A stretch of DNA of 64,000 nt from Candidatus Doudnabacteria bacterium RIFCSPHIGHO2_12_FULL_48_16 (GTDB lineage Bacteria; Patescibacteriota; Doudnabacteria; UBA920; O2-02-FULL-48-8), in contig MFEY01000007.1 in the NCBI GenBank assembly GCA_001780035.1, positions 123,155 through 187,154 of the forward strand. The letters are read 5' to 3'. This document shows positions 4,101-43,487 of this stretch, piece by piece; the first letter of the stretch is position 1; the number at the start of each line of letters is the position of its first letter. The translations under genes were made by a program, and so were the position numbers. The notes beneath the pieces were generated by a model. The model had not been told where the DNA came from. It ran no database searches and saw only the letters and a program-made list of their open reading frames with translations.

Positions 4101-4162
4101 TGTCCGATCTAGGGATCGGACATCTTCTCCCGCGAGGGGAGAAGATGAAATGTAAAAAATGA
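4101..4162 (+). promoter_or_regulatory. two tandem perfect hairpins plus a 5-codon leader ORF overlapping the recombinase start
   Basis: 'tgtccgatc-tagg-gatcggaca' and 'tcttctccc-gcga-gggagaaga' hairpins; 'atgaaatgtaaaaaatga' (MKCKK) whose TGA overlaps the ATG at 4159; SD-like 'gagggga' lies in the right arm of hairpin 2. Confidence 0.35.
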
Positions 4163-15077: not shown

Positions 15078-15078
15078 T

Positions 15079-15333
15079 CTATTTTTTAATGCTGTTAAAT
15101 AGCGTGACAAACAGCCAAACGGCCAGCAGAGCAATGACGTTCCAGATAATGAGACCCGAAATAAATGTCCCGAAAGTGAGAATGTTGCGGCCCATATCAA
15201 TTCCCATGTGCAAACCGTATCTCATGAATCCCGGCCGAAGAAGCGGAAACATGGCAACTCCGGCAAAACAAACCGCATACACAATGCTAACCCAGGCAGC
15301 GCTGACTTTCAGCAAATGTTTTAGATTGATCAT
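15079..15333 (-). CDS. small membrane protein (84 aa) in the copper operon
   Basis: three TM helices; stop immediately adjacent to the copB start (translational coupling). Confidence 0.4.
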   Translation of the reverse strand: MINLKHLLKVSAAWVSIVYAVCFAGVAMFPLLRPGFMRYGLHMGIDMGRNILTFGTFISGLIIWNVIALLAVWLFVTLFNSIKK

Positions 15334-31236: not shown

Positions 31237-31910
31237 AAGACCATGATTTGATTAAAATCAAAAATATCTACGATACCATCTCTATTCATATCAGCAGGAT
31301 TACCCTGCTCTTGTATGCCCCAGTTGATCATCATGGCATTAAAATCAAGAATGTTGAAAGCTCCATCTTTGACCAAATCGAGTTCTATTGGTGTCAAAAT
31401 AGTCTCTGTTGCCGCTCCTCCACCCCCACCTCCGCCAGAAAAAACAGGAGTTGTGCTTCGGGCCGAGACTGGCCGCCAATCAGTGCGCACATCGCAGTTA
31501 TCGCAATCAAAGGTCAGCGTTCCGACCAAACTGCCGGTAGCGCTGCCTTGGAATTGGCCTGCTGAATCAATGGTCACGCCGGAGAAATCGATCCAGCCAA
31601 GACCCTCGCCCCAGGCATTGCCGCCGAGCGTTCCTTCGCCGTTATTCGTAATCCCGCCATTAGAAGGAGTAAGATTGATCCAAGCCGTATTGCCGTTCCA
31701 GGCATCACCTGTAAGACCTGCGTCAGTCACGTGGATGTTTCCTTCTGTAAGACCGAAATTTACCCAGCCGGCGTTATTCGACCAGGCATAGCCTGCATTA
31801 CCGCCGGTAACGATCGTTCCATCAGTTTCAGAAGCTAAAGCAAGGCTTGGAGCGACAAAGCAAAGGAGTACCACAGATGCTATCAAAAATATGGTGAAAC
31901 GGGTATGCAT
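31212..31910 (-). CDS. secreted protein with dockerin-like Ca-binding repeats
   Basis: 232 aa; signal peptide; poly-Gly linker; 'DMNRDGIVDIFDFNQIM' and 'ILDFNAMMINWG' dockerin/EF-hand-like pair. Confidence 0.45.
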   Translation of the reverse strand: MHTRFTIFLIASVVLLCFVAPSLALASETDGTIVTGGNAGYAWSNNAGWVNFGLTEGNIHVTDAGLTGDAWNGNTAWINLTPSNGGITNNGEGTLGGNAWGEGLGWIDFSGVTIDSAGQFQGSATGSLVGTLTFDCDNCDVRTDWRPVSARSTTPVFSGGGGGGGAATETILTPIELDLVKDGAFNILDFNAMMINWGIQEQGNPADMNRDGIVDIFDFNQIMVLWGTIYQL

Positions 31911-31918
31911 ACTAGTAA

Positions 31919-34177
31919 TTATTGTGAAGTTTCGGCCGGACTAGTCGGTTGTTCAACAACTACTTCTACAGGCACTGGTGTTGGCTCAGCTGCAACCGGG
32001 TCTGTATCCTCTGGCGACGCTGTCGGTGTTGGTGTGCCCTCCATAGCATCTGGCGGCGTGTCCGCCGCCGAAGCTGCCTCCTCCGCACCCGGAACTTCAG
32101 CAGAAGCGGAGGCATCTGACGAAACCTCGGGAGTCGATGCTTCTTCATCGGCTAGAGGTGCTGTAATTATAGCAGGAGTAATATTGGCATTTTCTAAAAG
32201 CGAATTCAACTGGTCGCCATTAATACAAACTTCACTGCCGTCAGATTTCTTAACGCAGATTTGCTCAGTGTGAATTTTTTCGGCAAACAGTTCATAAAAG
32301 TATCCGCGGATGGCGGTCACGCGCGCGGCCACAAAATCAGTGAAAAATTGCATGCCATCCATAATTTTTTTAGCAATAAAAGCGATTGGATCATGAGCGG
32401 GTTCAGACTGAACACTGCTGACGAGCGTAGAAAGACCATTATCCGATTCATCAGCATTGGCTTTTGGTGTTAGGTCCCCCAAAAGTATTGCTTCTTCGCC
32501 CAAGTCAAAGTTCTTCACGAAGGCCACAACAATGCCTATACCATCGCCATCATATGCAGACATTGCTTGACCAATTACTGAACCCGTATTTTTTGCCTTC
32601 ATAGCAACACCGGGTATCGAAGAAGACGTAAGATAATCGCCCGGCGCAATAGCGCCATTTTCGGTAATTATTTTCACTGGCAGGCGTCCGGCAAGAGCAA
32701 CAATCACTGGTACTCCTTCATGAGCCCCGACAGTATCGCCGATGACAATGCCCGGCTTCGTTGAGACAATACCAATAACTTCATCATGCAACATAGCTCG
32801 GCGCACGCCGCTTGGCAAACTTGAATCCAGAGCAACGACTGTTCCCGGCACAAGCGATAAGTCTTTCGCGTAGTAAACCTCGCCAACATCAGCACCACCG
32901 CTGATGCGAAATGCCGAGAGACTGCTTCCACGATGAACGGTTGTCGCATTGCTGTTTGAGGTGTTTTGAGCCCACTGCAATCGTACCGTCCCCGCAGTAG
33001 ACCCATTTGCTATCGTCCCAGACAAATAGAGTGGGTCGTTTGCAGTGGCGGATCCAGCGGTTACAGTGATTGCTCCGCCACATGCGGTACTGCCGGCGCC
33101 GCTTGCAACGTCAACGCCCCCGCCGGCGTAATCACAGGTTGCGCCGGTTGGAGCAGTAACGGCAAGTTGGATGTCCGGCGTGGCAAGCGTGGTATAGAGT
33201 AAATTGAATTGAAAAACCCATATCTCATTCGCGCCAATGGCAAATAATAATTCATCATCGTCCTGCAAAACGGCATTGCTCGTAAGGCTTTCGTCCGCAG
33301 ACTTTCTAACATCTACCGCGTACTGGCCAAGTTCACATACTATATTACCGGCACTATCGGTTCCGAGATTACGACAACTGGTCAAGTTCCCAAGTGTAAG
33401 ACCGGCGAATGTTGGCGATGCACTCGTGGTCAACGTTTGTCCAGTATCAAAAGCAAGCTGGCTGTTGCCGATGGAATCAGCAGTAATAGAAAGAGAAGCG
33501 GCAGAATTTTCACTGCCTGATCCGGAAACAGTAATTTGTGATGAGCCACCAATGGTCGCGATATAATTGCCAGTCGTATGCGTACCGAGCGTAATGAGAT
33601 CACTCAAAGATGTTGCCCCCGTTCCACCATTACCAATAGCCAGTGCCGTACCTGACCAATTGCTGTTGTTAATGCTAGAGAGTACTGCTAATGAACCAAG
33701 TCCTAAATTAGTTCTGGCGGTCGAAGCACTAGCTAAATCAGAAAGATTGTTGGATGGATTGAGTGGAGTGTAGCCAAGCGCCGATTGTTTGTTGTTAAAA
33801 GTATCCCAGTCGGTAGAGGTCAAAAGACCCCGCGAAGTTGCGGCAGCGCTTGGAATATTAAATGTGTGAGTACTGCCGGTGGAATCAATGTTAAAATCAG
33901 TGCCTGATATTCCGGTGGCAAATGTTTGAGTGGTCAGAGTCAGGCCATTCAAACTAAATACACTAACTCCGCAATTAGTATCAGTCGGAAGACACGCCGG
34001 ATTCAAAGTTTCGCCCGGCTGGTAGAGGATTGCCAATGCTGGCCGTGATATGGACAAGATAAAAAGCACGACCAAAAGAAAAACCGGCAAAAATGTTTGA
34101 TATTTTAGTTTCAGAATATTCAATCTCATACGTATCGAAAAAAGAAAGACCCAAACGAAAAATCGTTTGGGTCTCAA
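31919..34177 (-). CDS. large secreted surface protein with tail-fibre-like Ser/Thr/Gly repeats and acidic C-terminal tail
   Basis: 752 aa; signal peptide; 'TARTNLGLGSLA' tail-fibre-like motif; low-complexity Pro/Glu/Ala/Thr tail. Confidence 0.5.
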   Translation of the reverse strand: MRPKRFFVWVFLFSIRMRLNILKLKYQTFLPVFLLVVLFILSISRPALAILYQPGETLNPACLPTDTNCGVSVFSLNGLTLTTQTFATGISGTDFNIDSTGSTHTFNIPSAAATSRGLLTSTDWDTFNNKQSALGYTPLNPSNNLSDLASASTARTNLGLGSLAVLSSINNSNWSGTALAIGNGGTGATSLSDLITLGTHTTGNYIATIGGSSQITVSGSGSENSAASLSITADSIGNSQLAFDTGQTLTTSASPTFAGLTLGNLTSCRNLGTDSAGNIVCELGQYAVDVRKSADESLTSNAVLQDDDELLFAIGANEIWVFQFNLLYTTLATPDIQLAVTAPTGATCDYAGGGVDVASGAGSTACGGAITVTAGSATANDPLYLSGTIANGSTAGTVRLQWAQNTSNSNATTVHRGSSLSAFRISGGADVGEVYYAKDLSLVPGTVVALDSSLPSGVRRAMLHDEVIGIVSTKPGIVIGDTVGAHEGVPVIVALAGRLPVKIITENGAIAPGDYLTSSSIPGVAMKAKNTGSVIGQAMSAYDGDGIGIVVAFVKNFDLGEEAILLGDLTPKANADESDNGLSTLVSSVQSEPAHDPIAFIAKKIMDGMQFFTDFVAARVTAIRGYFYELFAEKIHTEQICVKKSDGSEVCINGDQLNSLLENANITPAIITAPLADEEASTPEVSSDASASAEVPGAEEAASAADTPPDAMEGTPTPTASPEDTDPVAAEPTPVPVEVVVEQPTSPAETSQ

Positions 34178-34274
34178 GGACCTCTAAGGTTTTAACTTTT
34201 AAATTGTTATTTAATCTTTGTTTCTTGGAACTATTGTTGTTATATTAAATATAGTATAGCATAATATTAAGTTT

Positions 34275-35078
34275 ATGTCAATGAAATTGATACCAAAAAA
34301 TAAAAACAGTATCGCTTCCTTTGTCCTTATCGAACACCGCTGTAGTTGCGGCAAACTCCTTTTTAAGGGCATGCTTTTGTCGAGCGCCCTTGAGATTAAG
34401 TGCAAAGGCTGCGGAAAAATAAAAATCGTGGGCAATCAAAGTATCGACACAGAAAATGAAAATCAATACTCAATGCTCTTTGACGAGGCAAATAATATAA
34501 TCGATGTCAGTCCGTCAGCTATAAAAATTTTAGGCTTCAGCAAACAAGAACTGCTCGCAATGAAAGCACGACGTATAAAATTTTTGTTTAAAATGCATGA
34601 TAGTGACCGACTTTGGAAGACAGCCAGAAACTTGGGCTTTGAAACTTTTACTTTCGAAACAGTTCATCTGAAAAAAAACGGCGAGGTTTCGCCAGTACAA
34701 GCCCAGGTCAAATTTATAACAAGTAGCAATCAAGCTTTGGCGCTCGTGGTATTCAACGGTTTACAATCACCAAGTCCGCAAGTAACAGATTCGACCTGCG
34801 AATTCGTAGCTGATGTAAATCTTGAAGGAATTTATACCTATGTGAATCGGGCGTTGGCAACACTACTTGAATACTCTGCGGAAGAAATGCTGGGCAAATC
34901 TATGTTTGAATTTTATCCAATAGATGAGCGCAAAAAAATAGAAAAGATATTTTTCAGCCACCTCAAATCAAAGCAGTCATTTAAACTAAAGGATTCCCAA
35001 TTTGAAAGCTACTTCGTGACAAATGTTAATGATTGGGGCGGAGTTAGGGGTTATCATATACTGCGGTGGGCTAAGTGA
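34275..35078 (+). CDS. zinc-ribbon (Com-like) plus tandem PAS domain protein
   Basis: 267 aa; 'CSCGKLLF...CKGCGKIK' four-Cys ribbon at N-terminus followed by two PAS-like segments. Confidence 0.5.
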   Translation: MSMKLIPKNKNSIASFVLIEHRCSCGKLLFKGMLLSSALEIKCKGCGKIKIVGNQSIDTENENQYSMLFDEANNIIDVSPSAIKILGFSKQELLAMKARRIKFLFKMHDSDRLWKTARNLGFETFTFETVHLKKNGEVSPVQAQVKFITSSNQALALVVFNGLQSPSPQVTDSTCEFVADVNLEGIYTYVNRALATLLEYSAEEMLGKSMFEFYPIDERKKIEKIFFSHLKSKQSFKLKDSQFESYFVTNVNDWGGVRGYHILRWAK

Positions 35079-35290
35079 ATTTTTCTAGGAGACGATTTTT
35101 GTTCTTACAAAATACTTAGAAACCCTATATTTATAAGACAATCTCCACAAACAAAAAATCGTCCAGCAGGCGATTTTTTAAGTTTCTATAAATTATCAAA
35201 AACCTTGGAAATCGCTATATCGGTTCTATGTCCTGTAAGGGGGTATGCTTTTTAAAAATTAGAACCGCTATCGAATTTGCTGGGAAATAC

Positions 35291-35325
35291 TGACGCACCT
35301 CGGTCTCACTAACTGGGGTGGGCTA
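35291..35325 (-). repeat. tRNA-His 3'-end-like fragment (att-like), copy 0
   Basis: 'ctggggtgggctacggggaacgatccc' versus tRNA-His 3' end 'cttggggtgcctgatgggaatcgaaccc'; same orientation. Confidence 0.55.
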
Positions 35326-35417
35326 CGGGGAACGATCCCGATACCTTCTGCGCCACAATTTTCTTTTGTTCGGGAAATGGTACGAATTACATATTTAATT
35401 ACGTAATTAACATAGTC

Positions 35418-35708
35418 TTAGATTTTTTTAAATTCTTCTTGATTAATCTCCTCCAGTAATTCTAAAGTTGCCTTTACAGAAGGATTAGCGGTGTTTATGA
35501 GAATTAACCTTCGGTCAAAACTCTTCAACAATGGACTCAAAAACTCATCTCCCCAGGAAGGTGAGAATGTAATAACTCCCTCGAAATCTAATTCTAGGTT
35601 CTCATTTACATCTAAGGTTGTTATCTGGGATTGTAGCGCAGCAAAAGCTTCGCGGCCATTTTGCCGGGAGGTCAGTGTTGTCCCAAATTTTTTCAAATCT
35701 ATTTTCAT
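35418..35708 (-). CDS. DUF4325 (STAS-like) domain protein
   Basis: 96 aa; 'MKIDLKKFGTTLTSRQNGREA...' typical DUF4325 composition; immediately downstream of a GHKL ATPase gene. Confidence 0.5.
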   Translation of the reverse strand: MKIDLKKFGTTLTSRQNGREAFAALQSQITTLDVNENLELDFEGVITFSPSWGDEFLSPLLKSFDRRLILINTANPSVKATLELLEEINQEEFKKI

Positions 35709-35715
35709 AATATTT

Positions 35716-36438
35716 CTAAAATGTGATTAATGCTAAACACCCGCGAAATGATTCTATGCTCGGTTTTAAATCCAAGACATCGCTATCTTTAGTTAATACA
35801 AGCTCTGCGTTACCTGTCTGAAACAAAAGTCCAATAGGATTTTCTGCGACTATTTTCCGCACGAATTTCAGACCATTACCCCGACTCTCAGGCGCCCGGC
35901 CCGACAATATTTCAGTAAAGGCCACTCTCAATGCTTCTTCGTCTGTATTCAACTCTGGTTTTACTCTTTTCAAAGTAGTAAAAACACCCAAACCCCTATC
36001 CGCCAAAACAATATTTCTCTTGTGGATGTCATAGGCAAAAAATATTCCCGGAGTATCTGGCCAATTTCCTAAGTTATGATCAAAGGAATTGTTTCCGATT
36101 TCTCCGGCCACTGCCACAAGCAACGGGAATATAGGCGATAATTCTTTTACTCCGCCAAGGAAATCTTGCATCTGTATCAGCTTGGTCTGAAACACCGCGC
36201 TATTGGAACAATAAAATTTTGAAGGTATCTCGAAACTTTTTAATACCCAATCTTTGGCCAAACCAAAAAGATCATTCAAAAAAAGTTCTATCTGTGATCT
36301 GTTATACAAACGATAACCGGCATCTGACGTCTTCACAGGACTCAATTTACCTTTTTTATCCCAACGTCGGAGAGTATCGATCGAAACCCCCAATATTTCT
36401 GCGGCTTCGCTTATTGTAATAAGGTCTTGTTCTGCCAT
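35716..36438 (-). CDS. MerR-family HTH fused to a GHKL (anti-sigma-kinase-like) ATPase domain
   Basis: 240 aa; 'ITISEAAEILGVSIDTLRRWDKKGKL' MerR HTH; C-terminal N-box 'GEIGNNSFDH', G1 'DRGLGV', G2 'SRGNGLKFV'. Confidence 0.55.
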   Translation of the reverse strand: MAEQDLITISEAAEILGVSIDTLRRWDKKGKLSPVKTSDAGYRLYNRSQIELFLNDLFGLAKDWVLKSFEIPSKFYCSNSAVFQTKLIQMQDFLGGVKELSPIFPLLVAVAGEIGNNSFDHNLGNWPDTPGIFFAYDIHKRNIVLADRGLGVFTTLKRVKPELNTDEEALRVAFTEILSGRAPESRGNGLKFVRKIVAENPIGLLFQTGNAELVLTKDSDVLDLKPSIESFRGCLALITF

Positions 36439-36541
36439 AATTATTCAACTATAACATACTCTTAAACCCTATGCAAACTTTTTAAAACCCTATGCAACCC
36501 CCTATAAATAAGAGAGTTAGGGACCCACTTGGGTAGCCCTA

Positions 36542-36585
36542 ACTGGGGTCGCATCGCATAGTGAAGGATGCGAGAACTAAATTTC
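36542..36585 (-). repeat. tRNA-His 3'-end-like fragment (att-like), copy 1
   Basis: 'ctggggtcgcatcgcatagtgaaggatgcgagaact'; shares 'tggggt' and 'ggatg..agaac' with the tRNA 3' end and copy 2. Confidence 0.5.
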
Positions 36586-36854
36586 ACTAAGTTTAACTGA
36601 AGCACCATCATCAAAATCATAATAATTAACCGTTAGTTCTTCACCGGTCGCATCCGCCTTCGCGTGAAGCTTCGGCGGAACGGGTCCGTCCAGCCTGCCT
36701 GCCGGCAGGCAGGCATTCGCTAGCGTTCTTTGTATGGGGTTACATCATGCAGGATGTTCGAAGCCTGACTATGCAACTAAAGGTATTGACAAGGGCATCA
36801 AAAAAGCCTATAATTATATGTTTTATAGATCAACCGAAACTTGGAGGAGTAAAA

Positions 36855-37145
36855 ATGAAAACGAGAACGGAAGTGGTCGACACGAATCGGAGTTACGCCG
36901 AGCTCTACTCGGCGTACTTCGAAAACAGGGCAGCCGTCACCGTCGCTGAGCTCTACGATACGCGGGGGCACTTTGAAGGCCCCACCGCTTATCTGGAGAG
37001 GCATGAGGACAGGTATTTCGTGCTCTCTCACCAGTGGATGCCCACCAACGAGCCCGGTGGCCAACAGTGGGTATTCCGCTGGAACAAAGTGGACGGTCGC
37101 GAGAAACCCTTGCAGCTCATCCGACTCGTCGTTCCCACAGCGTGA
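36855..37145 (+). CDS. small hypothetical protein (96 aa), GC-rich
   Basis: ATG 36855 with 'ggaggag' SD; sits between att-like copies 1 and 2; antisense ORF 36798-37148 judged spurious. Confidence 0.4.
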   Translation: MKTRTEVVDTNRSYAELYSAYFENRAAVTVAELYDTRGHFEGPTAYLERHEDRYFVLSHQWMPTNEPGGQQWVFRWNKVDGREKPLQLIRLVVPTA

Positions 37146-37261
37146 CACATACGATTCTTGGGGTTTAGCAAACTTAGCAATTTAAGTTTGGTAGACCTCA
37201 AGATTTTTCTTTTTGTCTAAATTTTATCCTACATAAACACTAGCTTATATTAATGTCCATT

Positions 37262-37300
37262 CATGGGGTCGCATTGTGGAGGATGTTAGAACTGCTACCT
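37262..37300 (-). repeat. tRNA-His 3'-end-like fragment (att-like), copy 2
   Basis: 'atggggtcgcattgtggaggatgttagaactgc'. Confidence 0.5.
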
Positions 37301-37312
37301 TACACATTACGT

Positions 37313-37855
37313 TTAATGTTTAGTGTCTATTCTTTTTAAAAACTTTCTCAGTTGTGGTGGAACACTTTTGGAAGTATCTATTGTAAAATGAGGAAAATTA
37401 ACAGGCTCATATATTTTTTTTATTTTCAAATGAGCTATCCAACCAACTCCCTTACCTTGTAAAAATCTTTTAGAAACTCGTGCTCGTAATATTTTGTCAG
37501 GACAATAAATATATAGTACATGATAAGGAACTCCGTGCTTTTTAGCTATTTGTATAATCAAATCCCGCTGTTTCTGCTTAGAAAAAGCACCATCAATAAT
37601 AATGCTACCACCTGCTACTAAAGTATAATCAGTTAATAATGCAAAGGCATTGTAGCAGATTGCCAATTCATCCATCGTGGGTGGTTTATCCTTATTGACG
37701 AAAGATGGATTGGGAAGGAGTTTTTTTAAGGTAGAATCTACAGAAACGACAGGGGCACCTACTATCTTACTAAGTAGTTTGGCCGTGGTTGTTTTACCAG
37801 CTCCGACTTGGCCACAGATAATAAATAGCTCCGGTTTTAAAATAGTCTTTCTCAT
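37313..37855 (-). CDS. P-loop kinase (AAA_33/zeta-toxin-like fold)
   Basis: 180 aa; Walker A 'GQVGAGKTTT'; small kinase architecture. Confidence 0.6.
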   Translation of the reverse strand: MRKTILKPELFIICGQVGAGKTTTAKLLSKIVGAPVVSVDSTLKKLLPNPSFVNKDKPPTMDELAICYNAFALLTDYTLVAGGSIIIDGAFSKQKQRDLIIQIAKKHGVPYHVLYIYCPDKILRARVSKRFLQGKGVGWIAHLKIKKIYEPVNFPHFTIDTSKSVPPQLRKFLKRIDTKH

Positions 37856-37867
37856 TTTAAAATCCTT

Positions 37868-37892
37868 TTTGGGGTCACATCGTGCAAAATAT
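37868..37892 (-). repeat. tRNA-His 3'-end-like fragment (att-like), copy 3
   Basis: 'ttggggtcacatcgtgcaaaat'. Confidence 0.45.
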
Positions 37893-37958
37893 TGCCATCA
37901 TACCTCAGAATACAAACAATTATAACACGAGAGGTGGTAATTGCGTTCAATCCGGCAA

Positions 37959-38453
37959 CTAATTCGATCGTGGAAATAATTCATCCGAAGGCATAAAGAG
38001 TCCTCCCTTAACCACATGATAGGGTCTGTTAGTCTTAATTCGACCTTTTGAAGTTTTCACAAGCACTATTTGTTGGGTCAGTGGATCGATGGCAAAATAA
38101 TCTGATTGGCCGCCTTCATTCTCTAACCCATAGACGACGCGATCTGGCATATCTTCGATGGGTTGATCAAAACGTATGTTGGTCGGATCATCGATTCGCA
38201 CAATACTCGGTCTTCTTTCAGGAGGCAAATCGTTGAATCGTCCGTCGTCGCCTCGGAGCCTCTCTTCTAAAACATATAGCAAGGGTTGATGCGGTTGCCA
38301 ATCATGTAATGGTTGAATGTTGCGCTCCTGTAGAAAAGCCCGAGTTTCCGCTTCAGTCATACTTCTTCCAATATTCATTTCTGGACTTGGATCACCAGTA
38401 TTCATAAAACCATTATACCTAAAACCCGCCTTATCGACGAATTCTATCTTCAT
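37959..38453 (-). CDS. hypothetical protein (165 aa)
   Basis: start at Met 38453 with 'aagga' SD; the longer ORF to 38570 would overlap tRNA-His and an att-like copy. Confidence 0.45.
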   Translation of the reverse strand: MKIEFVDKAGFRYNGFMNTGDPSPEMNIGRSMTEAETRAFLQERNIQPLHDWQPHQPLLYVLEERLRGDDGRFNDLPPERRPSIVRIDDPTNIRFDQPIEDMPDRVVYGLENEGGQSDYFAIDPLTQQIVLVKTSKGRIKTNRPYHVVKGGLFMPSDELFPRSN

Positions 38454-38456
38454 ATC

Positions 38457-38486
38457 CTTGGGGTGCACGATGGGAATTCCGACGCT
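38457..38486 (-). repeat. partial duplicate of the tRNA-His 3' end (att-like), copy 4
   Basis: 'cttggggtgcacgatgggaattccgacgc' versus tRNA 'cttggggtgcctgatgggaatcgaaccc' (21/23 identical), 84 nt from the tRNA. Confidence 0.65.
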
Positions 38487-38542
38487 CCGGTCGGAACCAT
38501 TGGTCAAAGCCACAAGTTTGTTTATTAATGAAACTCTAGTCT

Positions 38543-38617
38543 TGGGGTGCCTGATGGGAATCGAACCCACGTGACCACTGCCACAGAGTGGCGTTCTACC
38601 ATTGAACTACAGGCACC
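38543..38617 (-). tRNA. tRNA-His (GTG) with encoded G-1
   Basis: cloverleaf: acceptor GTGCCTG/CAGGCAC, extra 5' G pairing with discriminator C, anticodon loop CTGTGGC, T-loop TTCGATT, CCA encoded. Confidence 0.85.
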
Positions 38618-38639
38618 ACAGGATCAAGGTTCCATTTTT

Positions 38640-39137
38640 TTAATGTTTGAATATCTGGCCAATTAGGGCGCCGACCGCGATGGCCACCGCGCCAATCAGG
38701 GTCATCCGCAAGGCGCTGCCCAAAAGCGGAATCCGCAGCACGCGGGCGCTGACGACTCCCAGCAGCGATAATCCGACCACAGAGGAAGCAATGGAAACCC
38801 AAAACGCCGGATTGATATCAAAGACTACATACGGCCACAGGGGTATCAGTCCCGTGAACAGATAGGAGAAGAACATAACCACGCCGCCGGCGAACGGATT
38901 CGAAATGCTGACCTTGGCGCGATTGACGTATTCTTCGGCCGAATATTCGGTCAGAAAACTGCCGACAGCCATGGAAAACGCTTCCACAAAAATCAAGACC
39001 ATCCCGGTCAGTAAAATATCAACCTTGGCCACGCCGCCGATGGCCACCCCCGAAAGCAGGCCGACGGTGGAAACCAGGCTGTCCTCGGCGCCAAAAATAA
39101 AATTGCGGACATACAAAACGAAATTTTTGCCGGGCAT
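38640..39137 (-). CDS. VIT1/CCC1 family membrane protein (iron/manganese transporter-like)
   Basis: 165 aa; 'GAEDSLVSTVGLLSGVA' VIT motif; multiple TM helices. Confidence 0.7.
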   Translation of the reverse strand: MPGKNFVLYVRNFIFGAEDSLVSTVGLLSGVAIGGVAKVDILLTGMVLIFVEAFSMAVGSFLTEYSAEEYVNRAKVSISNPFAGGVVMFFSYLFTGLIPLWPYVVFDINPAFWVSIASSVVGLSLLGVVSARVLRIPLLGSALRMTLIGAVAIAVGALIGQIFKH

Positions 39138-39149
39138 AGAAGATAATTT

Positions 39150-39455
39150 TTACTTCAAATTAAGCACGAGCAGAATTGCCATGGCCACCGCCAACCAGCC
39201 GAGTGTCAGCCCAAAAAAATTCAGCGCTTCTTTCTTTTGGCCGTCCAGATACATCATGACCGGCCAGCCCAGGACCAAGGATCCCGCCACGGCCGCGGAA
39301 AAAACAAACAGCAGGAGGATTGCGATTGGACCCAGAATTGTCTGTTCCTGCTTGAACCAGTGCTCGCCGTTATTCATAATCCACACAACCAATGAAACAT
39401 AAGCGACGACCAAAGCCGCATGACCCAAACTATGCACCGCTGGATTATTCTTCAT
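39150..39455 (-). CDS. small membrane protein (101 aa)
   Basis: three TM helices; no motif. Confidence 0.4.
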   Translation of the reverse strand: MKNNPAVHSLGHAALVVAYVSLVVWIMNNGEHWFKQEQTILGPIAILLLFVFSAAVAGSLVLGWPVMMYLDGQKKEALNFFGLTLGWLAVAMAILLVLNLK

Positions 39456-39477
39456 GATTTTCTTTTTAATTATTTCT

Positions 39478-39552
39478 TGGTGGTCCCGGTTGGAATCGAA
39501 CCAACATTAGTGGCTTAGAAGTCCACAGTTCTATCCATTGAACTACGGGACC
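39478..39552 (-). tRNA. tRNA-Arg (TCT)
   Basis: acceptor GGTCCCG/CGGGACC perfect, D-stem GTTC/GAAC, anticodon loop CTTCTAA, T-arm GTTGG-TTCGATT-CCAAC, CCA encoded. Confidence 0.75.
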
Positions 39553-39679
39553 TTGGGCAAAAAAATAATCTCCACAGTATGGAGACCTCGAAGGCGTAAC
39601 TGCTGTGTCAGATACGCGGCTTGCTATTTATAATTATACTCCTTTTGGGCCAAAAAGTCAATAATGCTATACTTAATCA

Positions 39680-40228
39680 ATGAAACAGGTCCTTGTCAGA
39701 AAGTTCGGCCACCTGGCGGCGAGCGCCGCATTTTTTGCCTTCCCCTATTTTTTTTCGCCCAAAACCATGATCGGCTTGTGCGGCTTATTTGCGATTTTAC
39801 TGCTGCTCGGGCATCTGATCGGCCTCTCTCGCCACCACCGGGTCGACCGGATCACGCTCGGTGAATTTTATTTTCCCTTGGGCGTGGCGCTGTCCGCTTT
39901 TTTCTTCCTCCCGCAAAATCTTCTGGCGTTCCAATTCGGCATCCTCATCCTCGGCGTCAGCGACACGGCGGCCGAGCTCACCGGGCGGCTCTGGGGCCGC
40001 CATCAAATCAAATCCGTGCACAAAACCTGGGAGGGAGTGCTCGCTTTCTTTCTCGTCAGCCTTCTGATCTTCCTGCTGTTCGTCTGGCCGCAGCACCCGG
40101 GAACAATCCTGGCCGGACTGTCGATTACCTTGTTGCTGACTTTGCTGGAAGGATTGCTCAGTTTCGGTCTCGACAATTTATTTTTACCAATTATCGCCGC
40201 TGTCCTGCTCAATTGGTTAATTAAATAA
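39680..40228 (+). CDS. CTP_transf_1 family membrane protein (CdsA/dolichol-kinase-like)
   Basis: 182 aa; 'SDTAAELTGRLWGRHQI..KTWEG' resembles the CdsA C-terminal catalytic motif. Confidence 0.45.
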   Translation: MKQVLVRKFGHLAASAAFFAFPYFFSPKTMIGLCGLFAILLLLGHLIGLSRHHRVDRITLGEFYFPLGVALSAFFFLPQNLLAFQFGILILGVSDTAAELTGRLWGRHQIKSVHKTWEGVLAFFLVSLLIFLLFVWPQHPGTILAGLSITLLLTLLEGLLSFGLDNLFLPIIAAVLLNWLIK

Positions 40229-40313
40229 TGGGCCAAGGGTTTGTTTGCCCAGGCTCGGCAAATCTGCTATATTTGAGTGTCCGATTTCGGACACCAAAGG
40301 AGTGAAAAACGGG

Positions 40314-41018
40314 ATGACTAAACCCACGCAAGGCCCAGAGTACGCCTACTTCACGGTCGCGGACTACGACAAGACGCCGGCGCTTGTCGAGTTCGCCCGG
40401 CAGGTCGCCAAGGTGGTGCCGCTACTGTCGTCCAACGGCACGGCCCGCTACCTGCGGGAGGCCGGATTGCCCGTGACGTCGGTCACCGAGATCATCAAGC
40501 ACTCGATCGCACACCGGCTGGCCAATGCGAACGGAGCACCGGCTGCGGTGCTCAAGTTCGAGGAAGGCCGTAAGATCATCGACTGGACAGCCGAGGTGCT
40601 GTCCGAGTATGATCTGCTCAACGGCCGGATCAAGACGCTGCGGCCCGAGTGCATGGGCCCCATCCTGGCCGCACCGGATCAGATCGGCGAACTGCAGCGC
40701 CTCGGCATGTGTCGGATCGTGCTCAACCGCACCAGCTTCTACGCCTTCCGGCGCGAAGTCCAGCGCGACGGCAGCACCCTGAAGTCGATCCGCCAGAAGC
40801 TCGACATCGGCGGCCCCACCGGCATCATGTGCACGATCAAGGCGGATGGCCTGCCGATCATCTTCGCCGAAGACCACGATGAGGTGCTCCAGTATCTCTG
40901 GAGCGACCGAATCAACGACGAGTTCCGGCGCCGGATGCAGAGAAAGGCAGCGTGGCACGTCGCGGACTACTACCAGCAGGTCGCCCGCTGGCTGACCGAG
41001 ATCCCGATGCCCGCGTAG
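40314..41018 (+). CDS. PurH-like MGS-domain protein (IMP cyclohydrolase-like domain only), GC-rich
   Basis: ~235 aa from Met 40314 with 'aaaggag' SD; 'VEFARQVAKVVPLLSSNGTARYLREAGLPVTSVTEI...GRIKTLRP...LDIGGPTG' parallels PurH N-terminal IMPCH/MGS blocks. Confidence 0.5.
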   Translation: MTKPTQGPEYAYFTVADYDKTPALVEFARQVAKVVPLLSSNGTARYLREAGLPVTSVTEIIKHSIAHRLANANGAPAAVLKFEEGRKIIDWTAEVLSEYDLLNGRIKTLRPECMGPILAAPDQIGELQRLGMCRIVLNRTSFYAFRREVQRDGSTLKSIRQKLDIGGPTGIMCTIKADGLPIIFAEDHDEVLQYLWSDRINDEFRRRMQRKAAWHVADYYQQVARWLTEIPMPA

Positions 41019-41112
41019 CCACAGATGCGCAACACGGTCTGGCTGATTGTTCTCCCCTTCAACCGGGAAAACCTCAGTCCAGACCGTGCCTCACTTTTTT
41101 TATAAGTTAAAT

Positions 41113-42501
41113 TTATAACTGCGCCAAGCGTTCCGCCAGCCCCAGATAGTTTTCCGGGGTGATTTTTTTGAGCTCGGCTTTGATCTTAGGCTTTATGTCC
41201 AGTTGGTCGATAAATTTATAAATATCCTTGAGGACAAGGGTTTTGCCGCGGGTTAATTCTTTTAATTTTTCATACGGCATTCTTTTCCCTTCGCGGCGCA
41301 GGATGGTCTGAATGGCTTCCGCAATCACCTCCGGATGCTTATTTAAATCTTCCCGCATCTTGGTTTTGTTCACCACAATCCGGGCAAGTTGGTTGTTCAA
41401 ATATTTAAAACCTATCAAGCTGTGCCCGAATGCGGTACCTATACTTCGCAAAACCGTAGAATCGGATAAATCTCTTTGTAGGCGTGAAATGGGAAGCTTG
41501 CGCGCAAAAAATTCAAATAAAGCATTAGCTGTTCCTAAATTTCCTTCGCTGTTTTCCAAAAACCAGGGGTTAATTTTATGCGGCATGGTCGAGGAGCCGA
41601 CCTCGCCTGCCACAGACTGCTGGGCGATCCAATCGTCGCTGATATAACGCCACACATCCTGATTGAAACCGATTAAAATAAAATTGATTCTCCTTAGCAT
41701 ATCAAACAATTCAACAAAGCTGTCATAGGGCTCTATTTGCGTCGTAAACAAATTGATCTCCATTTTTACCTTCCTGAATTGAGCTATTCCCTTGATGAAT
41801 TTTTTGGAAAAATTTACCCAGTCAATCCGTGGATATGCCGCATGGAGCGCGTTGTAATTGCCGGTTGCGCCATTTAATTTTGCCAAAAGAACATGGTTTT
41901 TGATTTGGCCTATTTGGCGACTCAATCTTTCTTCAAATATCTTGAATTCCTTGCCGAAGGTCGTAGGCGAGGCCGGTTGCCCGTGAGTGCGGGCAAGCAT
42001 CGGGATATTTTTATTATCCTTAGCCAGTTTGCCGATTTTTTTGGCAATTTCTTCCAGTGCCGGTAAATAAACTTCTCTCATACTTTCCCCTATCATAAGC
42101 GTATAAGCGGTATGCGTGGCATCCCAGGTGGTTAGGCCAAAATGCGTGAACTCCAAAATATCTTTTAGGCTTGTTTTTCCGAGTTTTTCTTTTATAAAGT
42201 ATTCCATCGCCTTAAAATCGTGATTGGTGGCTTTTATTTCCTTGTATCCCTTAAGTTCAATGTCACTAATAATTTGCGCGTCTTTTATTGAAAAGTTTTC
42301 ATATAAATTTCTTAACAACTTTTTTTCTTTTGCACTTAATTTTCGCATTCCTACCCCTCTTGTTTCTGATAAAGCAATCAAATATTCACACTCCATAAGA
42401 ACCTTGTATTTCATAGAGGCTGACTCGCTGAAATAAGGAGCTAGGTCCTTCGTGTATTTTTCGTATCGTCCGTCTAATGGCGAAATTGAATTTAACGGCA
42501 T
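41113..42501 (-). CDS. purB: adenylosuccinate lyase
   Basis: 462 aa; 'SPLDGRYEKYTKDLAPYFSE', fumarate-lyase signature region 'GSSTMPHKINP'. Confidence 0.85.
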   Translation of the reverse strand: MPLNSISPLDGRYEKYTKDLAPYFSESASMKYKVLMECEYLIALSETRGVGMRKLSAKEKKLLRNLYENFSIKDAQIISDIELKGYKEIKATNHDFKAMEYFIKEKLGKTSLKDILEFTHFGLTTWDATHTAYTLMIGESMREVYLPALEEIAKKIGKLAKDNKNIPMLARTHGQPASPTTFGKEFKIFEERLSRQIGQIKNHVLLAKLNGATGNYNALHAAYPRIDWVNFSKKFIKGIAQFRKVKMEINLFTTQIEPYDSFVELFDMLRRINFILIGFNQDVWRYISDDWIAQQSVAGEVGSSTMPHKINPWFLENSEGNLGTANALFEFFARKLPISRLQRDLSDSTVLRSIGTAFGHSLIGFKYLNNQLARIVVNKTKMREDLNKHPEVIAEAIQTILRREGKRMPYEKLKELTRGKTLVLKDIYKFIDQLDIKPKIKAELKKITPENYLGLAERLAQL

Positions 42502-42510
42502 AATTTTATC

Positions 42511-43482
42511 TTATCTTTGTATTTCGTATTTTTTTAAACTATTTTTAATTCTTTGCTCTATTGGTTCTTGAATATTTGCCTCAAATTTTCTACCGAGCAT
42601 TTTCTCATATATTTCTATATAGCGGGAAGCGAGCTCAACTATCATATCTGGAGGCACTTCCGGCAAAACCTTGTCTTTATACGGGTCACATTTACCCTTA
42701 AACCATAAGCGCAAAAACTCTTTATCAAAATATTCTGGTTCCTCTCCATTATTGAACCTCTCCTCATAACTTTTTAGCATCCACCAACGTGCGCTGTCAG
42801 GCGTGTGTATCTCATCAATAAGGACAAGGTTGTTATTTTCATCTAAACCAAATTCATATTTTGTATCAACCATAATAAATCCTCGATCGGCTGATATTTC
42901 CTGGCCTCTTTTGAAAAGTGCCAATGATGTGTCTGAAACTTTTTTTAGTATATCTGTTGTCAATAGTCCTTCATCAACAATCTCTTTCGGGGTCAAACTT
43001 CTGTCGTGCTCTTCAAGTTTGGTAGTAAAGGTTAAGACGGTCTCTTTAAGTTTCTCATTTTTACGGAGCCCTTCGGGTAAAATAAAATTTCCAAAATCTC
43101 TTTTTCCTTTTTGATAATGGGTCCAGAGCGAGGTATTAGTAGATCCTGTAATATATGCCCTTGGAATTATTTCTATGGGGACAATTTTATATTTCTTTGC
43201 CACTAAAACATTAGGATCAGGGTATTCTAAAACATGATTAGGAATAATATCTTTTGTTGCATCAAACCAGTATCTGCTGGTTTCAGTTAGAATTTGCCCC
43301 TTAAAAGGTATGTGCGCGATTATTCGATCAAATGAAGAATGACGATCGGTCGAAATCAAAATTAGTTTGTCGCCCAAATCATAAATGTCTCTGACCTTAC
43401 CCGTCCTTTTTGGACCAAGCGCTGACAGATTGGTCTCCCTTAAAACATTATTAATATTTTGAGCGATGATTTTTTTTTCCAT
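42511..43482 (-). CDS. purC: phosphoribosylaminoimidazole-succinocarboxamide synthase (SAICAR synthetase)
   Basis: 323 aa; 'GKVRDIYDLGDKLILISTDRHSSFD', 'DTKYEFG'. Confidence 0.85.
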   Translation of the reverse strand: MEKKIIAQNINNVLRETNLSALGPKRTGKVRDIYDLGDKLILISTDRHSSFDRIIAHIPFKGQILTETSRYWFDATKDIIPNHVLEYPDPNVLVAKKYKIVPIEIIPRAYITGSTNTSLWTHYQKGKRDFGNFILPEGLRKNEKLKETVLTFTTKLEEHDRSLTPKEIVDEGLLTTDILKKVSDTSLALFKRGQEISADRGFIMVDTKYEFGLDENNNLVLIDEIHTPDSARWWMLKSYEERFNNGEEPEYFDKEFLRLWFKGKCDPYKDKVLPEVPPDMIVELASRYIEIYEKMLGRKFEANIQEPIEQRIKNSLKKYEIQR

Positions 43483-43487
43483 AAAAT

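What the first reader, a model, noticed from the sequence alone, without database searches (positions are those of the whole stretch)
35291..38617. tRNA-His followed by a tandem array of five att-like partial tRNA 3'-end copies delimiting four small cargo cassettes, with no integrase nearby
The 3' end of tRNA-His is on the minus strand at 38543. Same-orientation fragments resembling its 3' end recur at about 38459, 37870, 37264, 36544 and 35293, and they are progressively more degenerate with distance. The intervals each hold one small unit: a 165-aa unknown protein, a P-loop kinase, a GC-rich 96-aa ORF, and a MerR::GHKL-ATPase gene with a DUF4325 gene. This is the signature of repeated site-specific integrations at the tRNA 3' end, each event leaving a duplicated att scar. 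Here the units are tiny (0.6-1.2 kb), none encodes a recombinase, and none is encoded within about 30 kb. That suggests a trans-mobilised, integron-like cassette system targeting tRNA-His, or a decayed series of nested islets.
Basis: seen in the sequence. Interest (0 to 1): 0.85.

Follow-up and report, generated by a model that had tools for sequence, protein, structure and literature searches.

The report
Serine-recombinase scars stacked behind tRNA-His
The repeats behind this tRNA-His gene are mostly not tRNA copies but leftover tail ends of a serine recombinase gene, marking repeated insertions of mobile elements from a very large, apparently undescribed family that targets tRNA ends in ultra-small (CPR) bacteria.

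Summary
The repeats are real: ACCCCA occurs 8 times on one strand in 3.2 kb.

- **True partial tRNA-His copies:** only two (38457-38480 and 35292-35357).
- **The other four copies:** It lies downstream of tRNA-His in at least 14 other metagenomic loci, often in arrays with units of 0.4-1.6 kb.
- **What the element is:** read antisense it encodes WGR[IV]V[EKQ]DVRT…, with coding-type codon periodicity. This is the C-terminal tail of a large serine recombinase whose attP lies inside its own gene. Crossover is at or near the tRNA CCA end.
- **All states were found:** a circular ~14-kb episome with the full-length gene (L091/L092), and integrated 8-10-kb elements whose recombinase reads into tRNA-His, with the displaced tail at the far end (L079, L093). 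L093 also carries an older mini-cassette.
- **The window:** it has no such recombinase, only a Xer-like gene 30 kb away. Its array is the same in every contig the tool displayed, and three of its four tail relics are degenerate.

Best reading: a non-autonomous, CIME-like accretion array. Trans-mobilised mini-cassettes are not excluded. It is not an integron.

The parts
38543..38616 (-). Intact tRNA-His(GTG) with encoded CCA. It is the attB-side anchor (B arm). Its antisense reads WGA-stop.
   Evidence: ARAGORN, Rfam tRNA 65.8 bits, antisense translation
38457..38480 (-). Copy 2: a displaced partial tRNA-His 3' end (GAATTCCCATCGTGCACCCCAAG), 22 of about 24 nt identical to the window's own tRNA-His. 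It lies 84 nt downstream of the tRNA and directly abuts the RBS and ATG of cargo gene A.
   Evidence: the repeat finder family D2; sequence
37959..38453 (-). Cargo gene A, 164 aa, no known domain. A 58-61% identical homologue in L017 is followed directly by the same core element. Homologues at 51-56% identity in L015 and L016 have no element.
37868..37898 (-). W3: a degenerate recombinase-tail relic. The antisense reads WGHIVQNIAIIPQ. Tentative when taken alone.
   Evidence: nhmmer E = 6; the repeat finder D3/D11; antisense reading
37313..37855 (-). Cargo: a P-loop kinase (AAA_33 / Zeta_toxin-like), 180 aa. Non-orthologous P-loop kinases occupy ~570-610-bp units in the L056 and L093 arrays.
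   Evidence: Pfam, NCBIfam
37228..37296 (-). W4: a near-intact attP-like junction. It consists of the core GTTCTAACATCCTCCACAATGCGACCCCA (37264-37292) plus a ~36-nt P' relic with a hairpin. The antisense reads TLAYINVHS-WGRIVEDVRTATLHITFNV-stop.
   Evidence: nhmmer E = 6e-10; 85% over 62 nt to the L019 junction, E = 5e-13
37156..37203 (.). A strong hairpin between the convergent kinase and GC-rich ORF, terminator-like. Its ACCCCA at 37159 is probably coincidental.
   Evidence: the repeat finder I4; fold z = -4.69; antisense not tail-like
36785..37145 (+). A GC-rich (about 55%) 96-aa ORF (36855-37145) on the opposite strand. It has its own consensus TTGACA-17-TATAAT promoter (36785-36813) and a GGAGG RBS. 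No known domain.
   Evidence: sequence, composition, Pfam none
36713..36780 (-). Core CTTCGAACATCCTGCATGATGTAACCCCA (36735-36763) plus a ~22-nt P' relic. The antisense reads WGYIMQDVRS.
   Evidence: the repeat finder D3; nhmmer E = 0.9; 77% over 70 nt to the L019 junction, E = 6e-6
36578..36734 (.). A gene-less GC-rich spacer with a perfect 22-nt palindrome GCCTGCCTGCCGGCAGGCAGGC (36692-36713).
   Evidence: sequence
36510..36577 (-). W6: a recombinase-tail relic with a 5-nt duplication (GTTCTCGCATCCTTCACTATGCGATGCGACCCCA, 36544-36577). The antisense reads WGRIVKDART once the duplication is removed. It is followed by a hairpin flank (GTTAGGG…CCCTAAC) homologous to the sequence downstream of the L019-type tRNA-His, so this is an attR-type junction.
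   Evidence: nhmmer E = 0.01; the repeat finder D10
35716..36438 (-). Cargo: a 240-aa protein with an N-terminal MerR-type HTH. The C-terminal 180 aa are unassigned, and the GHKL claim is not supported.
   Evidence: Pfam, NCBIfam, PADLOC weak mad1 HTH hit
35418..35708 (-). Cargo: a 96-aa DUF4325 (STAS-like) protein, 7 nt downstream of the MerR-like gene.
   Evidence: Pfam E = 1.2e-5
35292..35357 (-). Copy 7: a truncated tRNA-His pseudogene (3' ~44 nt) of a different sequence type, plus 22 nt of its native flank. It marks the distal end of the island and shares a 28-nt direct repeat (79%) with the flank of W6.
   Evidence: blastn 89% over 66 nt to L019 1441-1506, E = 7e-18; the repeat finder D10

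Best explanation
Window 35.29-38.62 kb is a tandem accretion array at the 3' end of tRNA-His in a Candidatus Doudnabacteria (CPR) genome. It was left by integrative elements that use a large serine recombinase (LSR).

In this family the attP site lies inside the 3' end of the recombinase gene. The crossover is at or next to the codon TGG, which is the antisense of the tRNA's CCA. When an element integrates, the recombinase gene stays next to the tRNA and now reads antisense into it (…RARW-G-A/V-stop). Its last ~10-28 codons (WGRIVEDVRT…YIYVPDL) are carried to the far end of the element, where they remain as the conserved 'core' GTTCTAACRTCC…GCGACCCCA.

Each new element inserts on the tRNA side and pushes older ones outward. 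This leaves junctions of the form core-CCCCA-short P' relic, where the P' relic is a terminator-like hairpin that is itself part of the recombinase coding sequence.

In the window four such tail relics (W3-W6) and two displaced tRNA-His 3' fragments separate one- or two-gene units that have lost the recombinase. No recombinase of this family is in the 64 kb, three of the four cores are damaged, and the array was the same in every contig the tool displayed. The units are therefore non-autonomous and probably immobile now (CIME-like remnants).

Shown: the identity of the repeat, its link to tRNA-His, and the circular, integrated and remnant configurations.
Inferred: that the LSR catalyses the reaction, the exact crossover dinucleotide, and that the small units arose by deletion.
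For: 1. **The repeat is a widespread element linked to tRNA-His.** The 27-nt pattern gave about 45 true members in metagenomes, with the 8 unconstrained positions strongly conserved. tRNA-His lies upstream on the same strand in 12 of those loci, and also in L012 and L013, which were fetched independently of the pattern.
2. **The repeat is coding-derived.** 42 unique junctions translate antisense to GR[IVL]V[EKQM]DVRT[IV]I.RQ..YI. Entropy by codon position is 0.47 / 0.18 / 0.61, and GTTCT/GTTCG corresponds to AGA/CGA, both Arg.
3. **The peptide is the native C-terminal tail of an LSR family.** Examples are P0133 …RWGQIVKDIRTGFERMDRYIYIPELEHQV, and P0207, P0208 and P0202. 18 of the 120 best homologues end W-G-x-stop, which is tRNA-His antisense. 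At least 61 read into …DSN/ESN…, which is the antisense of a tRNA T arm.
4. **attP form.** In L030 the LSR reads through CCCCA into the core. L091 and L092 are a circularly permuted ~14-kb element, 100% identical, with no tRNA and the full-length LSR.
5. **Integrated form.** In L079 and L093 the LSR overlaps the tRNA-His 3' end by 12 nt, and the core lies 10.1 kb and 7.8 kb away. In L093 the intact element sits on the tRNA side of an older 566-bp kinase cassette bounded by cores.
6. **Decay.** L056/L062/L070 keep only a 24-31-aa LSR relic next to tRNA-His.
7. **The window.** W4 scores E = 6e-10, and W4 and W5 align to the L019 junctions over 62-70 nt including the P' part. All four relics read WG[RYH]I[VM]…. 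No LSR is present in the window.
Against: - No recombination was observed. The assignment of the LSR rests on genomic configurations only.
- Canonical LSRs recombine attP with attB, not attP with attL. Repeated insertion on the tRNA side therefore requires either relaxed site selectivity or another route.
- Among the more than 40 junctions examined, the P' relic is almost always trimmed to about 45-50 nt, and only one locus has a longer LSR fragment. Unit sizes are bimodal: 7.8-10.1 kb versus 0.03-1.6 kb. This fits a distinct class of mini-elements better than gradual random decay, although short contigs bias the sample.
- The distal tRNA-His fragment (copy 7) is of a different sequence type from the resident tRNA and is 44 nt long. 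A crossover at CCA cannot produce that, so another element type or a replacement event is also needed.
- W3 is not significant on its own (E = 6).
- The remainder of this genome was not searched for the recombinase.
Confidence: 0.8

Rival explanations
1. Trans-mobilised mini-cassettes. Each small unit (P' terminator relic, one gene, core) is a bona fide non-autonomous element that carries a complete minimal attP. An LSR encoded elsewhere (episome, another island, another cell) excises and re-inserts it at tRNA-His. This would make tRNA-His an integron-like cassette platform.
For: - Every internal junction retains both half-sites of an attP-like site: a core of at least 27 nt plus a ~45-nt P' part.
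- Units are very compact and mostly hold one gene in the same orientation. The L093 kinase cassette is 566 bp with 10 nt and 5 nt of spacer.
- Sizes are bimodal with nothing between 1.6 and 7.8 kb.
- Cores in arrays such as L038 and L019 are well preserved at all positions.
- Cargo is highly diverse between loci.
- The association of gene A with a core is kept at 58-61% protein identity in L017.
Against: - No identical or near-identical cassette was seen in two different contexts. The three kinase cassettes are not orthologous.
- No circular mini-cassette was found.
- The window's array is invariant in all contigs the tool displayed, out of 23 read per protein.
- Three of the window's four cores are damaged.
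- L056 shows ordinary deletion decay of the LSR.
- Strong deletion bias in reduced CPR genomes, together with selection to keep a terminator, could give the same compact units.
Confidence: 0.27
2. Classical reading: all copies are decaying duplicates of the tRNA-His 3' end, left by tyrosine-integrase islands whose attP carries a tRNA fragment.
For: Two copies really are tRNA-His 3' fragments of 24 and 44 nt (38457-38480 and 35292-35357). This is the kind of displaced fragment such islands leave (PMC7192596).
Against: The four other copies share only ACCCCA with the tRNA and have a fixed 17-nt rather than 12-nt spacing. They are more similar to copies in unrelated hosts than to the resident tRNA, and they encode the LSR tail. 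No tyrosine integrase lies next to any array examined.
Confidence: 0.05
3. The repeat is a structured RNA, for example a tRNA top-half mimic that ends in CCA and is followed by a terminator. It would serve as a processing or punctuation signal between genes.
For: It has a T-loop-like TTCGAAC, ends in CCCCA, and is followed by a terminator hairpin. L013-b folds into a long hairpin.
Against: - Fold energies do not differ from shuffles (z = -1.7 to +0.35).
- There is no Rfam match.
- Variation follows antisense codon positions rather than base pairs.
Confidence: 0.03
4. Xer/dif-like modules (as in Acinetobacter pdif modules), recombined by the housekeeping Xer-like enzyme encoded at 4159-5142.
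For: The core has an arm-spacer-arm look with a compensatory change in the inner dyad (ACAT..ATGT versus ACGT..ACGC). It has some resemblance to the reverse complement of E. coli dif (a resemblance from memory, noted). A Xer-like gene is present.
Against: - The same 'compensatory' changes are synonymous or conservative codon changes in the LSR tail.
- All copies are in direct orientation and are tied to tRNA-His and to LSR genes.
- Nothing links Xer to the arrays.
Confidence: 0.03

Closest known systems
Tandem arrays of genomic islands at tRNA genes, and CIMEs (cis-mobilisable elements: decayed ICE/IME that keep attL/attR but have lost integration genes), formed by site-specific accretion (PMC5704250; PMC7192596)
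   Same: Successive site-specific insertions at the 3' end of a conserved gene. Recombinase-less units are flanked by att sites. An incoming intact element sits next to older remnants (L093).
   Different: The known cases use tyrosine integrases whose attP carries a tRNA fragment. Here the enzyme is a large serine recombinase, the repeated scar is a fragment of the recombinase gene and not of the tRNA, and the units are far smaller (0.4-1.6 kb, usually one gene).
Large serine integrases of phages and ICE/IME (phiC31, Bxb1, TnpX/TndX, CcrAB of SCCmec; from my own knowledge of the field)
   Same: The same domain set: Resolvase + Recombinase + Zn_ribbon_recom, about 530-560 aa. attP is immediately at the int gene. 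Intact elements have only short identity at the crossover (ACCCCACC in L079). SCC elements also pile up in tandem with ccr-less pseudo-SCC units at the 3' end of one gene (rlmH).
   Different: The target is the CCA end of tRNA genes. Use of t(m)RNA genes by S-Ints was described as 'not reported previously', with only 14 of 297 predicted cases (PMC7192596). In addition, attP lies inside the ORF, so integration swaps the C-terminal tail.
SSV1-type 'suicidal' tyrosine integrases of Archaea, whose att site lies within the integrase gene (PMC8371274)
   Same: attP lies inside the recombinase ORF. Integration into a tRNA gene partitions the gene, and a gene fragment marks the far end of the provirus.
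   Different: That class is tyrosine-type and is described as exclusive to Archaea. Here the enzyme is serine-type and the host is bacterial (CPR). Only the last ~10-28 codons are detached, so the catalytic and DNA-binding domains stay intact and the enzyme is probably not inactivated.
Integrons (IntI, attI, attC cassette arrays)
   Same: Arrays of small, mostly one-gene units in the same orientation, each ending in a conserved site and stacked next to a fixed primary site.
   Different: There is no IntI, no attC-type folded imperfect palindrome and no R''/R' boxes. The repeat is a coding fragment. The primary site is a tRNA end. Many units carry their own promoter-like TTGACC…TATAAT.

Membership tests
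Integron / CALIN (attC cassette array) | IntI-type tyrosine recombinase adjacent to the array | tested here: not met
   No recombinase within ±10 kb (Pfam annotation). The only tyrosine recombinase in 64 kb is Xer-like, at 4159-5142. It scores 134 bits against a cut-off of 265 for the integron-integrase model.
Integron / CALIN (attC cassette array) | attC sites: imperfect palindromes with R''/L''…L'/R' boxes that fold as single strands | tested here: not met
   Folding of the copies as RNA or DNA is no better than shuffles. The repeat is conserved as antisense codons. No RYYYAAC…GTTRRRY arrangement is visible in the sequence.
LSR (large serine recombinase) integrative element at a tRNA gene | A recombinase with Resolvase + Recombinase + Zn-ribbon domains encoded at the element end next to the att site | tested here: not met
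   For the window itself: no LSR homologue in 64 kb (tblastn E < 1e-3; family HMM on six frames). The feature is met in related loci L079, L093, L030 and L091. The window units are therefore not autonomous members.
LSR (large serine recombinase) integrative element at a tRNA gene | attL/attR junctions that can be derived from an observed attP and the target | tested here: met
   - attP: L030 and L091 have core-CCCCA-P' inside a full-length LSR.
- attL: tRNA-His-P' with the LSR reading WGV/WGA-stop (L079, L093).
- attR: core-CCCCA-host flank (L079 195-221; window W6).
LSR (large serine recombinase) integrative element at a tRNA gene | A free circular form | tested here: met
   For a relative, not for the window. 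The ends of L091 are joined in L092 at 100% identity, in two independent assemblies, with no tRNA.
LSR (large serine recombinase) integrative element at a tRNA gene | Catalysis of attP x attB recombination by the enzyme | not testable with these tools
   Requires an in vivo or in vitro recombination assay.
CIME-like remnant (cis-mobilisable element) | Flanked by att sites of an integrative-element family while lacking recombination and transfer genes | tested here: met
   The window units are bounded by W3-W6 and by copies 2 and 7. Their cargo consists of a kinase, a MerR-like protein, a DUF4325 protein and unknowns.
CIME-like remnant (cis-mobilisable element) | Derived from an autonomous element by deletion | tested here: inconclusive
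   For: the LSR relic in L056/62/70. Against: uniform ~45-nt P' relics and bimodal sizes.
CIME-like remnant (cis-mobilisable element) | Mobilisable together with, or by, an incoming related element | not testable with these tools
   No polymorphism was seen in the contigs displayed for this population. This needs read-level data or an experiment.
SSV-type 'suicidal' integrase | Tyrosine recombinase of the SSV type | tested here: not met
   The enzyme is a serine recombinase (Pfam Resolvase).
SSV-type 'suicidal' integrase | att site within the recombinase ORF, so that integration partitions the gene | tested here: met
   Tail codons are separated from the gene body in L079 and L093, and are contiguous with it in L030, L091 and P0133.

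The most novel reading that the evidence does not exclude
A family of more than 4,000 large serine recombinases in Patescibacteria has its attP inside its own ORF and integrates at the CCA end of tRNA genes. Integration swaps the enzyme's C-terminal tail, giving a built-in switch between the episomal and integrated forms. In addition, minimal 'attP + one gene' units are moved in trans by these enzymes. tRNA-His would then work as an integron-like cassette platform in CPR bacteria, a group with few known routes of gene exchange.
Probability: 0.25. Interest if true: 0.85.

Novelty: new variant of a known kind. Interest (0 to 1): 0.66.

Why it matters
- **A rare target for this enzyme class.** Serine integrases were thought to avoid tRNA genes (PMC7192596). 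Here a very large family appears to specialise in tRNA CCA ends, with sub-lineages matched to different tRNAs.
- **An archaeal-style feature in bacteria.** The att site sits inside the recombinase gene, which a 2021 review (PMC8371274) describes as exclusive to archaeal tyrosine integrases. It appears here in a bacterial serine recombinase. The tail swap offers a testable mechanism for controlling direction.
- **Accessory genes in CPR bacteria.** These organisms have tiny genomes and poorly understood gene flow. The arrays explain a hot spot where accessory genes (kinases, Fic, NYN, regulators) accumulate.
- **A practical resource.** Each intact member comes with a readable natural attP/attB pair, which is useful for recombinase tool mining.
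- **An annotation caveat.** Tools that look for displaced tRNA fragments will misplace or miss the boundaries of these islands, because the scar is a recombinase fragment.

Tried and rejected
- **Exact 28-nt tRNA-His 3' end against genome contigs.** Only two unrelated CPR genomes came back and no empty site. One of them (L012) later proved to carry the element.
- **Core pattern against viral contigs.** No hit, so there is no link to catalogued phages.
- **Rfam on the window region and on 14 loci.** Only tRNAs and sub-threshold noise.
- **RNA and ssDNA folding of all copies.** Not better than shuffles. I dropped the tRNA-minihelix idea and the attC-like ssDNA idea.
- **A dif-like or tyrosine-recombinase core-site reading (arm, 8-nt spacer, arm, with a compensatory change).** I considered this (note) and dropped it once the changes proved to be codon-synonymous.
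- **Search for a recurrent protein near the arrays by all-against-all BLAST.** None recurred except the LSR cluster, a VTT-domain neighbour of tRNA-His, and an NYN protein next to two long-form cores.
- **Same cassette in two places.** The kinase cassettes of the window, L056 and L093 share only a P-loop.
- **LSR pseudogene remnants in the window.** None beyond the tail relics.
- **One look-up failed.** The ORF start was evidently wrong for 13107-15200, so I used direct Pfam scans instead.
- **'Progressive decay with distance'.** Rejected on profile scores.

Full report
**1. What is in the window**

The window comes from a Candidatus Doudnabacteria (CPR/Patescibacteria) population from the Rifle aquifer (GCA_001777705.1). 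tRNA-His(GTG) lies at 38543-38616 on the minus strand, with an encoded G-1 and CCA.

On the tRNA's strand the hexamer ACCCCA occurs 8 times between 35314 and 38543. There are 17 such sites on that strand in all 64 kb, so about 0.5 would be expected in this stretch. The positions are 38543 (the tRNA end), 38459, 37870, 37264, 37159, 36735, 36544 and 35314. The copy at 36735 is new. The one at 37159 lies in a strong hairpin between convergent genes (z = -4.7) and is probably coincidental.

The 240-aa protein has only a MerR-type HTH, and its C-terminal 180 aa match no family, so 'GHKL' is unsupported.

**2. Two kinds of repeat**

Two copies are real tRNA-His 3' fragments.
- **Copy 38457-38480** matches 22 of about 24 nt of the resident tRNA-His 3' end.
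- **Copy 35292-35357** is 89% identical over 66 nt to the last ~44 nt plus 22 nt of downstream flank of a different tRNA-His type, seen in locus L019 (E = 7e-18).

The other four copies (37870, 37264, 36735, 36544) resemble each other more than they resemble the tRNA (families D3 and D11). Their distance from a T-loop-like TTCnAAC to CCCA is a constant 17 nt, where a tRNA has 12. Their consensus is GTTCTAACRTCCTnYACnAYGCGACCCCA.

**3. The element elsewhere**

- **L013** is a related species with the same synteny (tRNA-Arg, p101, VIT1, tRNA-His; VIT1 73% identical). It has a different 185-aa ORF after tRNA-His, followed by the same element and a 15-nt perfect repeat, ACCCCAGAATAAAAA.
- **L017** holds a 58-61% identical homologue of cargo protein A, followed 3 nt after its stop codon by the element.
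- **A metagenome scan** with GTTCNAACRTCCN8GCGACCC returned 73 loci. About 45 are true members, in which the eight unconstrained positions are strongly conserved. The rest are GC-rich chance hits.
- **tRNA-His association.** In 12 of those loci tRNA-His lies upstream on the same strand. Other tRNAs seen nearby are its genomic neighbours tRNA-Arg and tRNA-Phe, and in L088 a tRNA-Glu is the only tRNA near the array. A profile built from these members also finds the element 1.45 kb after tRNA-His in L012, which had been fetched independently.
- **Arrays are common.** L038 has at least 4 cores, L019 has 3, and L056, L088 and L093 have 2. Units are 0.4-1.6 kb.
- **Cargo is diverse.** It includes Fic, NYN, P-loop kinases, an EamA transporter, a YkuD transpeptidase, a pilin-like lectin and many unknowns.
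- **Downstream of each core.** After 3-10 nt comes a terminator-like hairpin with a T-run, often followed by TTGACC-N17-TATAAT.

**4. What the element is**

Rfam finds nothing, and folding is no better than for shuffled sequence. The decisive observation is on the antisense strand.

- **A recombinase at tRNA-His.** In L079 a 533-aa protein with Resolvase, Recombinase and Zn_ribbon_recom domains (a large serine recombinase, LSR) ends 12 nt inside the 3' end of tRNA-His. Its last codons, WGV-stop, are the antisense of …GACACCCCA. The core lies 10.1 kb away at the other end.
- **The attP form.** In L030 a 66% identical LSR reads straight through CCCCA into a core.
- **A coding signature.** Across 42 unique junctions the antisense of the core translates to GR[IVL]V[EKQM]DVRT[IVA]I.RQ..YI…. 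Entropy is 0.47, 0.18 and 0.61 at codon positions 1, 2 and 3. The GTTCT/GTTCG alternation corresponds to AGA/CGA, both Arg.
- **The family's C-termini.** A homology search gave more than 4,300 relatives at E <= 1e-20, named from Patescibacteria where a name exists. All share …NKAKTEALTSVRARW. After that W, among the 120 best, the endings fall into these classes:
  - 18 end G-x-stop, which is tRNA-His antisense.
  - At least 61 run into …DSN/ESN… strings, the antisense of a tRNA T arm. Some are longer read-throughs of tRNA-His, and most are other tRNAs.
  - 5 carry the native tail, for example P0133 WGQIVKDIRTGFERMDRYIYIPELEHQV.

So the core is the detached 3' end of the recombinase gene. attP lies inside the ORF, and the crossover is at or beside TGG/CCA.

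**5. States of the element**

- **Free form.** L091 and L092 come from two independent assemblies and are 100% identical but circularly permuted, with L091's ends joined in L092. Together they give a ~14-kb circle. It encodes a Toprim primase, DUF5659, a DEAD helicase, a methyltransferase, SocA and the full-length LSR, and it has no tRNA.
- **Integrated form.** This is seen in L079 (10.1 kb) and L093 (7.8 kb). In L093 the intact element sits between tRNA-His and an older 566-bp P-loop-kinase unit bounded by two cores. That is the accretion order the model predicts.
- **Decay.** L056/L062/L070 retain only a 24-31-aa LSR fragment beside tRNA-His.
- **A second recombinase type.** A more distant LSR (20% identity) in L078 reads in the sense direction into a ~25-nt tRNA-His 3' fragment ahead of two cassettes. 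A crossover further inside the tRNA, by such an element, could account for fragments like the window's copy 2.

**6. Reading the window with this key**

The antisense readings are:
- **W4:** TLAYINVHS-WGRIVEDVRTATLHITFNV-stop. This is a near-complete attP-like junction (E = 6e-10, and 85% over 62 nt to an L019 junction).
- **W5:** WGYIMQDVRS (77% over 70 nt to L019, E = 6e-6).
- **W6:** WGRIVKDART, after removal of a 5-nt duplication. It is followed by the flank typical of the L019-type tRNA-His, so it is an attR-type junction.
- **W3:** WGHIVQNIA. This relic is weak.

The array therefore records at least four LSR-type insertions, plus one or two events that displaced longer tRNA fragments.

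There is no LSR in the 64 kb. The only recombinase is Xer-like, at 4159-5142 among housekeeping genes. The right flank encodes type IV pilus genes. Every contig of this population that the tool displayed has the same gene order. 23 contigs were read per protein, and similar places were collapsed.

**7. Mechanism and its uncertainties**

- **Shown:** the identity of the repeat, its link to tRNA-His and to the LSR family, and the attP, attL and attR configurations.
- **Inferred:** catalysis by the LSR and insertion of newcomers on the tRNA side.
- **Open:** whether the small units are deletion remnants (CIME-like; PMC5704250) or a class of minimal attP-plus-gene elements moved in trans.

Decay is supported by the L056 relic, by the window's damaged cores and by its invariance. 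Mini-elements are supported by three things: the uniform ~45-nt P' relic, which covers a full half-site and a terminator; the extreme compaction; and a size gap between 1.6 and 7.8 kb. Short contigs and the deletion bias of CPR genomes weaken that second argument.

Canonical LSRs do not recombine attP with attL, so accretion needs explaining under either view. Copy 7, a 44-nt fragment of another tRNA-His type, also remains unexplained.

**8. Comparison with known systems and novelty**

The closest known systems are tandem island arrays and CIMEs at tRNA genes, which use tyrosine integrases. SCC-type tandem arrays built by serine recombinases, SSV-type integrases with the att site inside the gene, and integrons are further analogues.

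Integron membership fails on IntI and on attC. SSV-type membership fails on enzyme class. The window's units fail autonomous-LSR-element membership because they lack the recombinase. They meet the structural definition of CIME-like remnants.

The searchable literature states that use of t(m)RNA genes by serine integrases had 'not been reported previously' (14 of 297 predictions; PMC7192596). It also describes att-in-gene integrases as exclusive to Archaea (PMC8371274). Six searches found no description of this family, although subscription journals are not covered.

I rate this a new variant of a known kind. The window locus itself is a largely decayed example. The family it led to is the interesting part.

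Noticed in passing
L014 1340-1782 (relative of the window; corresponds to window ~38617-38640): In a related species (VIT1 77% identical) an 88-aa GIY-YIG/T5orf172 gene, resembling a homing endonuclease, sits between VIT1 and the start of tRNA-His. In the window these two are adjacent.
   Followed up: no
window 4159-5142 (+): A Xer-like tyrosine recombinase (XerC 247 bits, XerD 243 bits, archaeal XerA model 230 bits against a cut-off of 220). It lies between the PNPase and ABC-transporter genes and is the only recombinase in the window.
   Followed up: partly
window 36578-37145: A GC-rich (about 50-56%) insert within a ~38% GC region. It holds a 96-aa ORF on the opposite strand with a textbook TTGACA-17-TATAAT promoter, and a perfect 22-nt palindrome GCCTGCCTGCCGGCAGGCAGGC (36692-36713). 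No homologues were sought.
   Followed up: no
proteins P0126-P0244: Most members of the recombinase family read antisense into tRNAs other than His (tails WLPGLDSNQ…, WQGRQDSNLE…, WRRGWDSNPR…). Native tails begin WL/WV instead of WG in those lineages. The first codons after W seem to track the target tRNA's acceptor end.
   Followed up: partly
L078 (whole locus, minus strand): A distant LSR (20% identity to the L079 enzyme) runs in the sense direction into a ~25-nt tRNA-His 3' fragment plus terminator. Two cassettes with cores follow it. This is a possible second recombinase lineage using tRNA-His with a crossover further inside the tRNA.
   Followed up: partly
L088 1139-2700: An array with two good cores lies downstream of tRNA-Glu(CTC), not tRNA-His. 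This is the only such case.
   Followed up: no
L081 3803-3835: A core-like sequence (GTTCTAACATCCTGTCCTGTGCCACCCA) abuts the CCCCA of tRNA-His directly. It looks like an 'empty' unit of about 30 nt.
   Followed up: no
window 37313-37855; L056 4321-4818; L093 3220-3705: Three non-orthologous small P-loop kinases (AAA_18 / AAA_33 / Zeta-toxin-like) each form a ~570-610-bp single-gene unit in three different arrays. This may be functional enrichment.
   Followed up: partly
L024 2235-2828 and L035 322-921: An NYN-domain (RNase-like) protein lies directly upstream of long-form cores in two unrelated loci.
   Followed up: no
window 30000-44000: G+C content swings between about 30% and 65% over short distances, for example 40.2-41.0 kb at 64% and 43.6-43.9 kb at 28%. 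This is unusual heterogeneity for a small genome.
   Followed up: no
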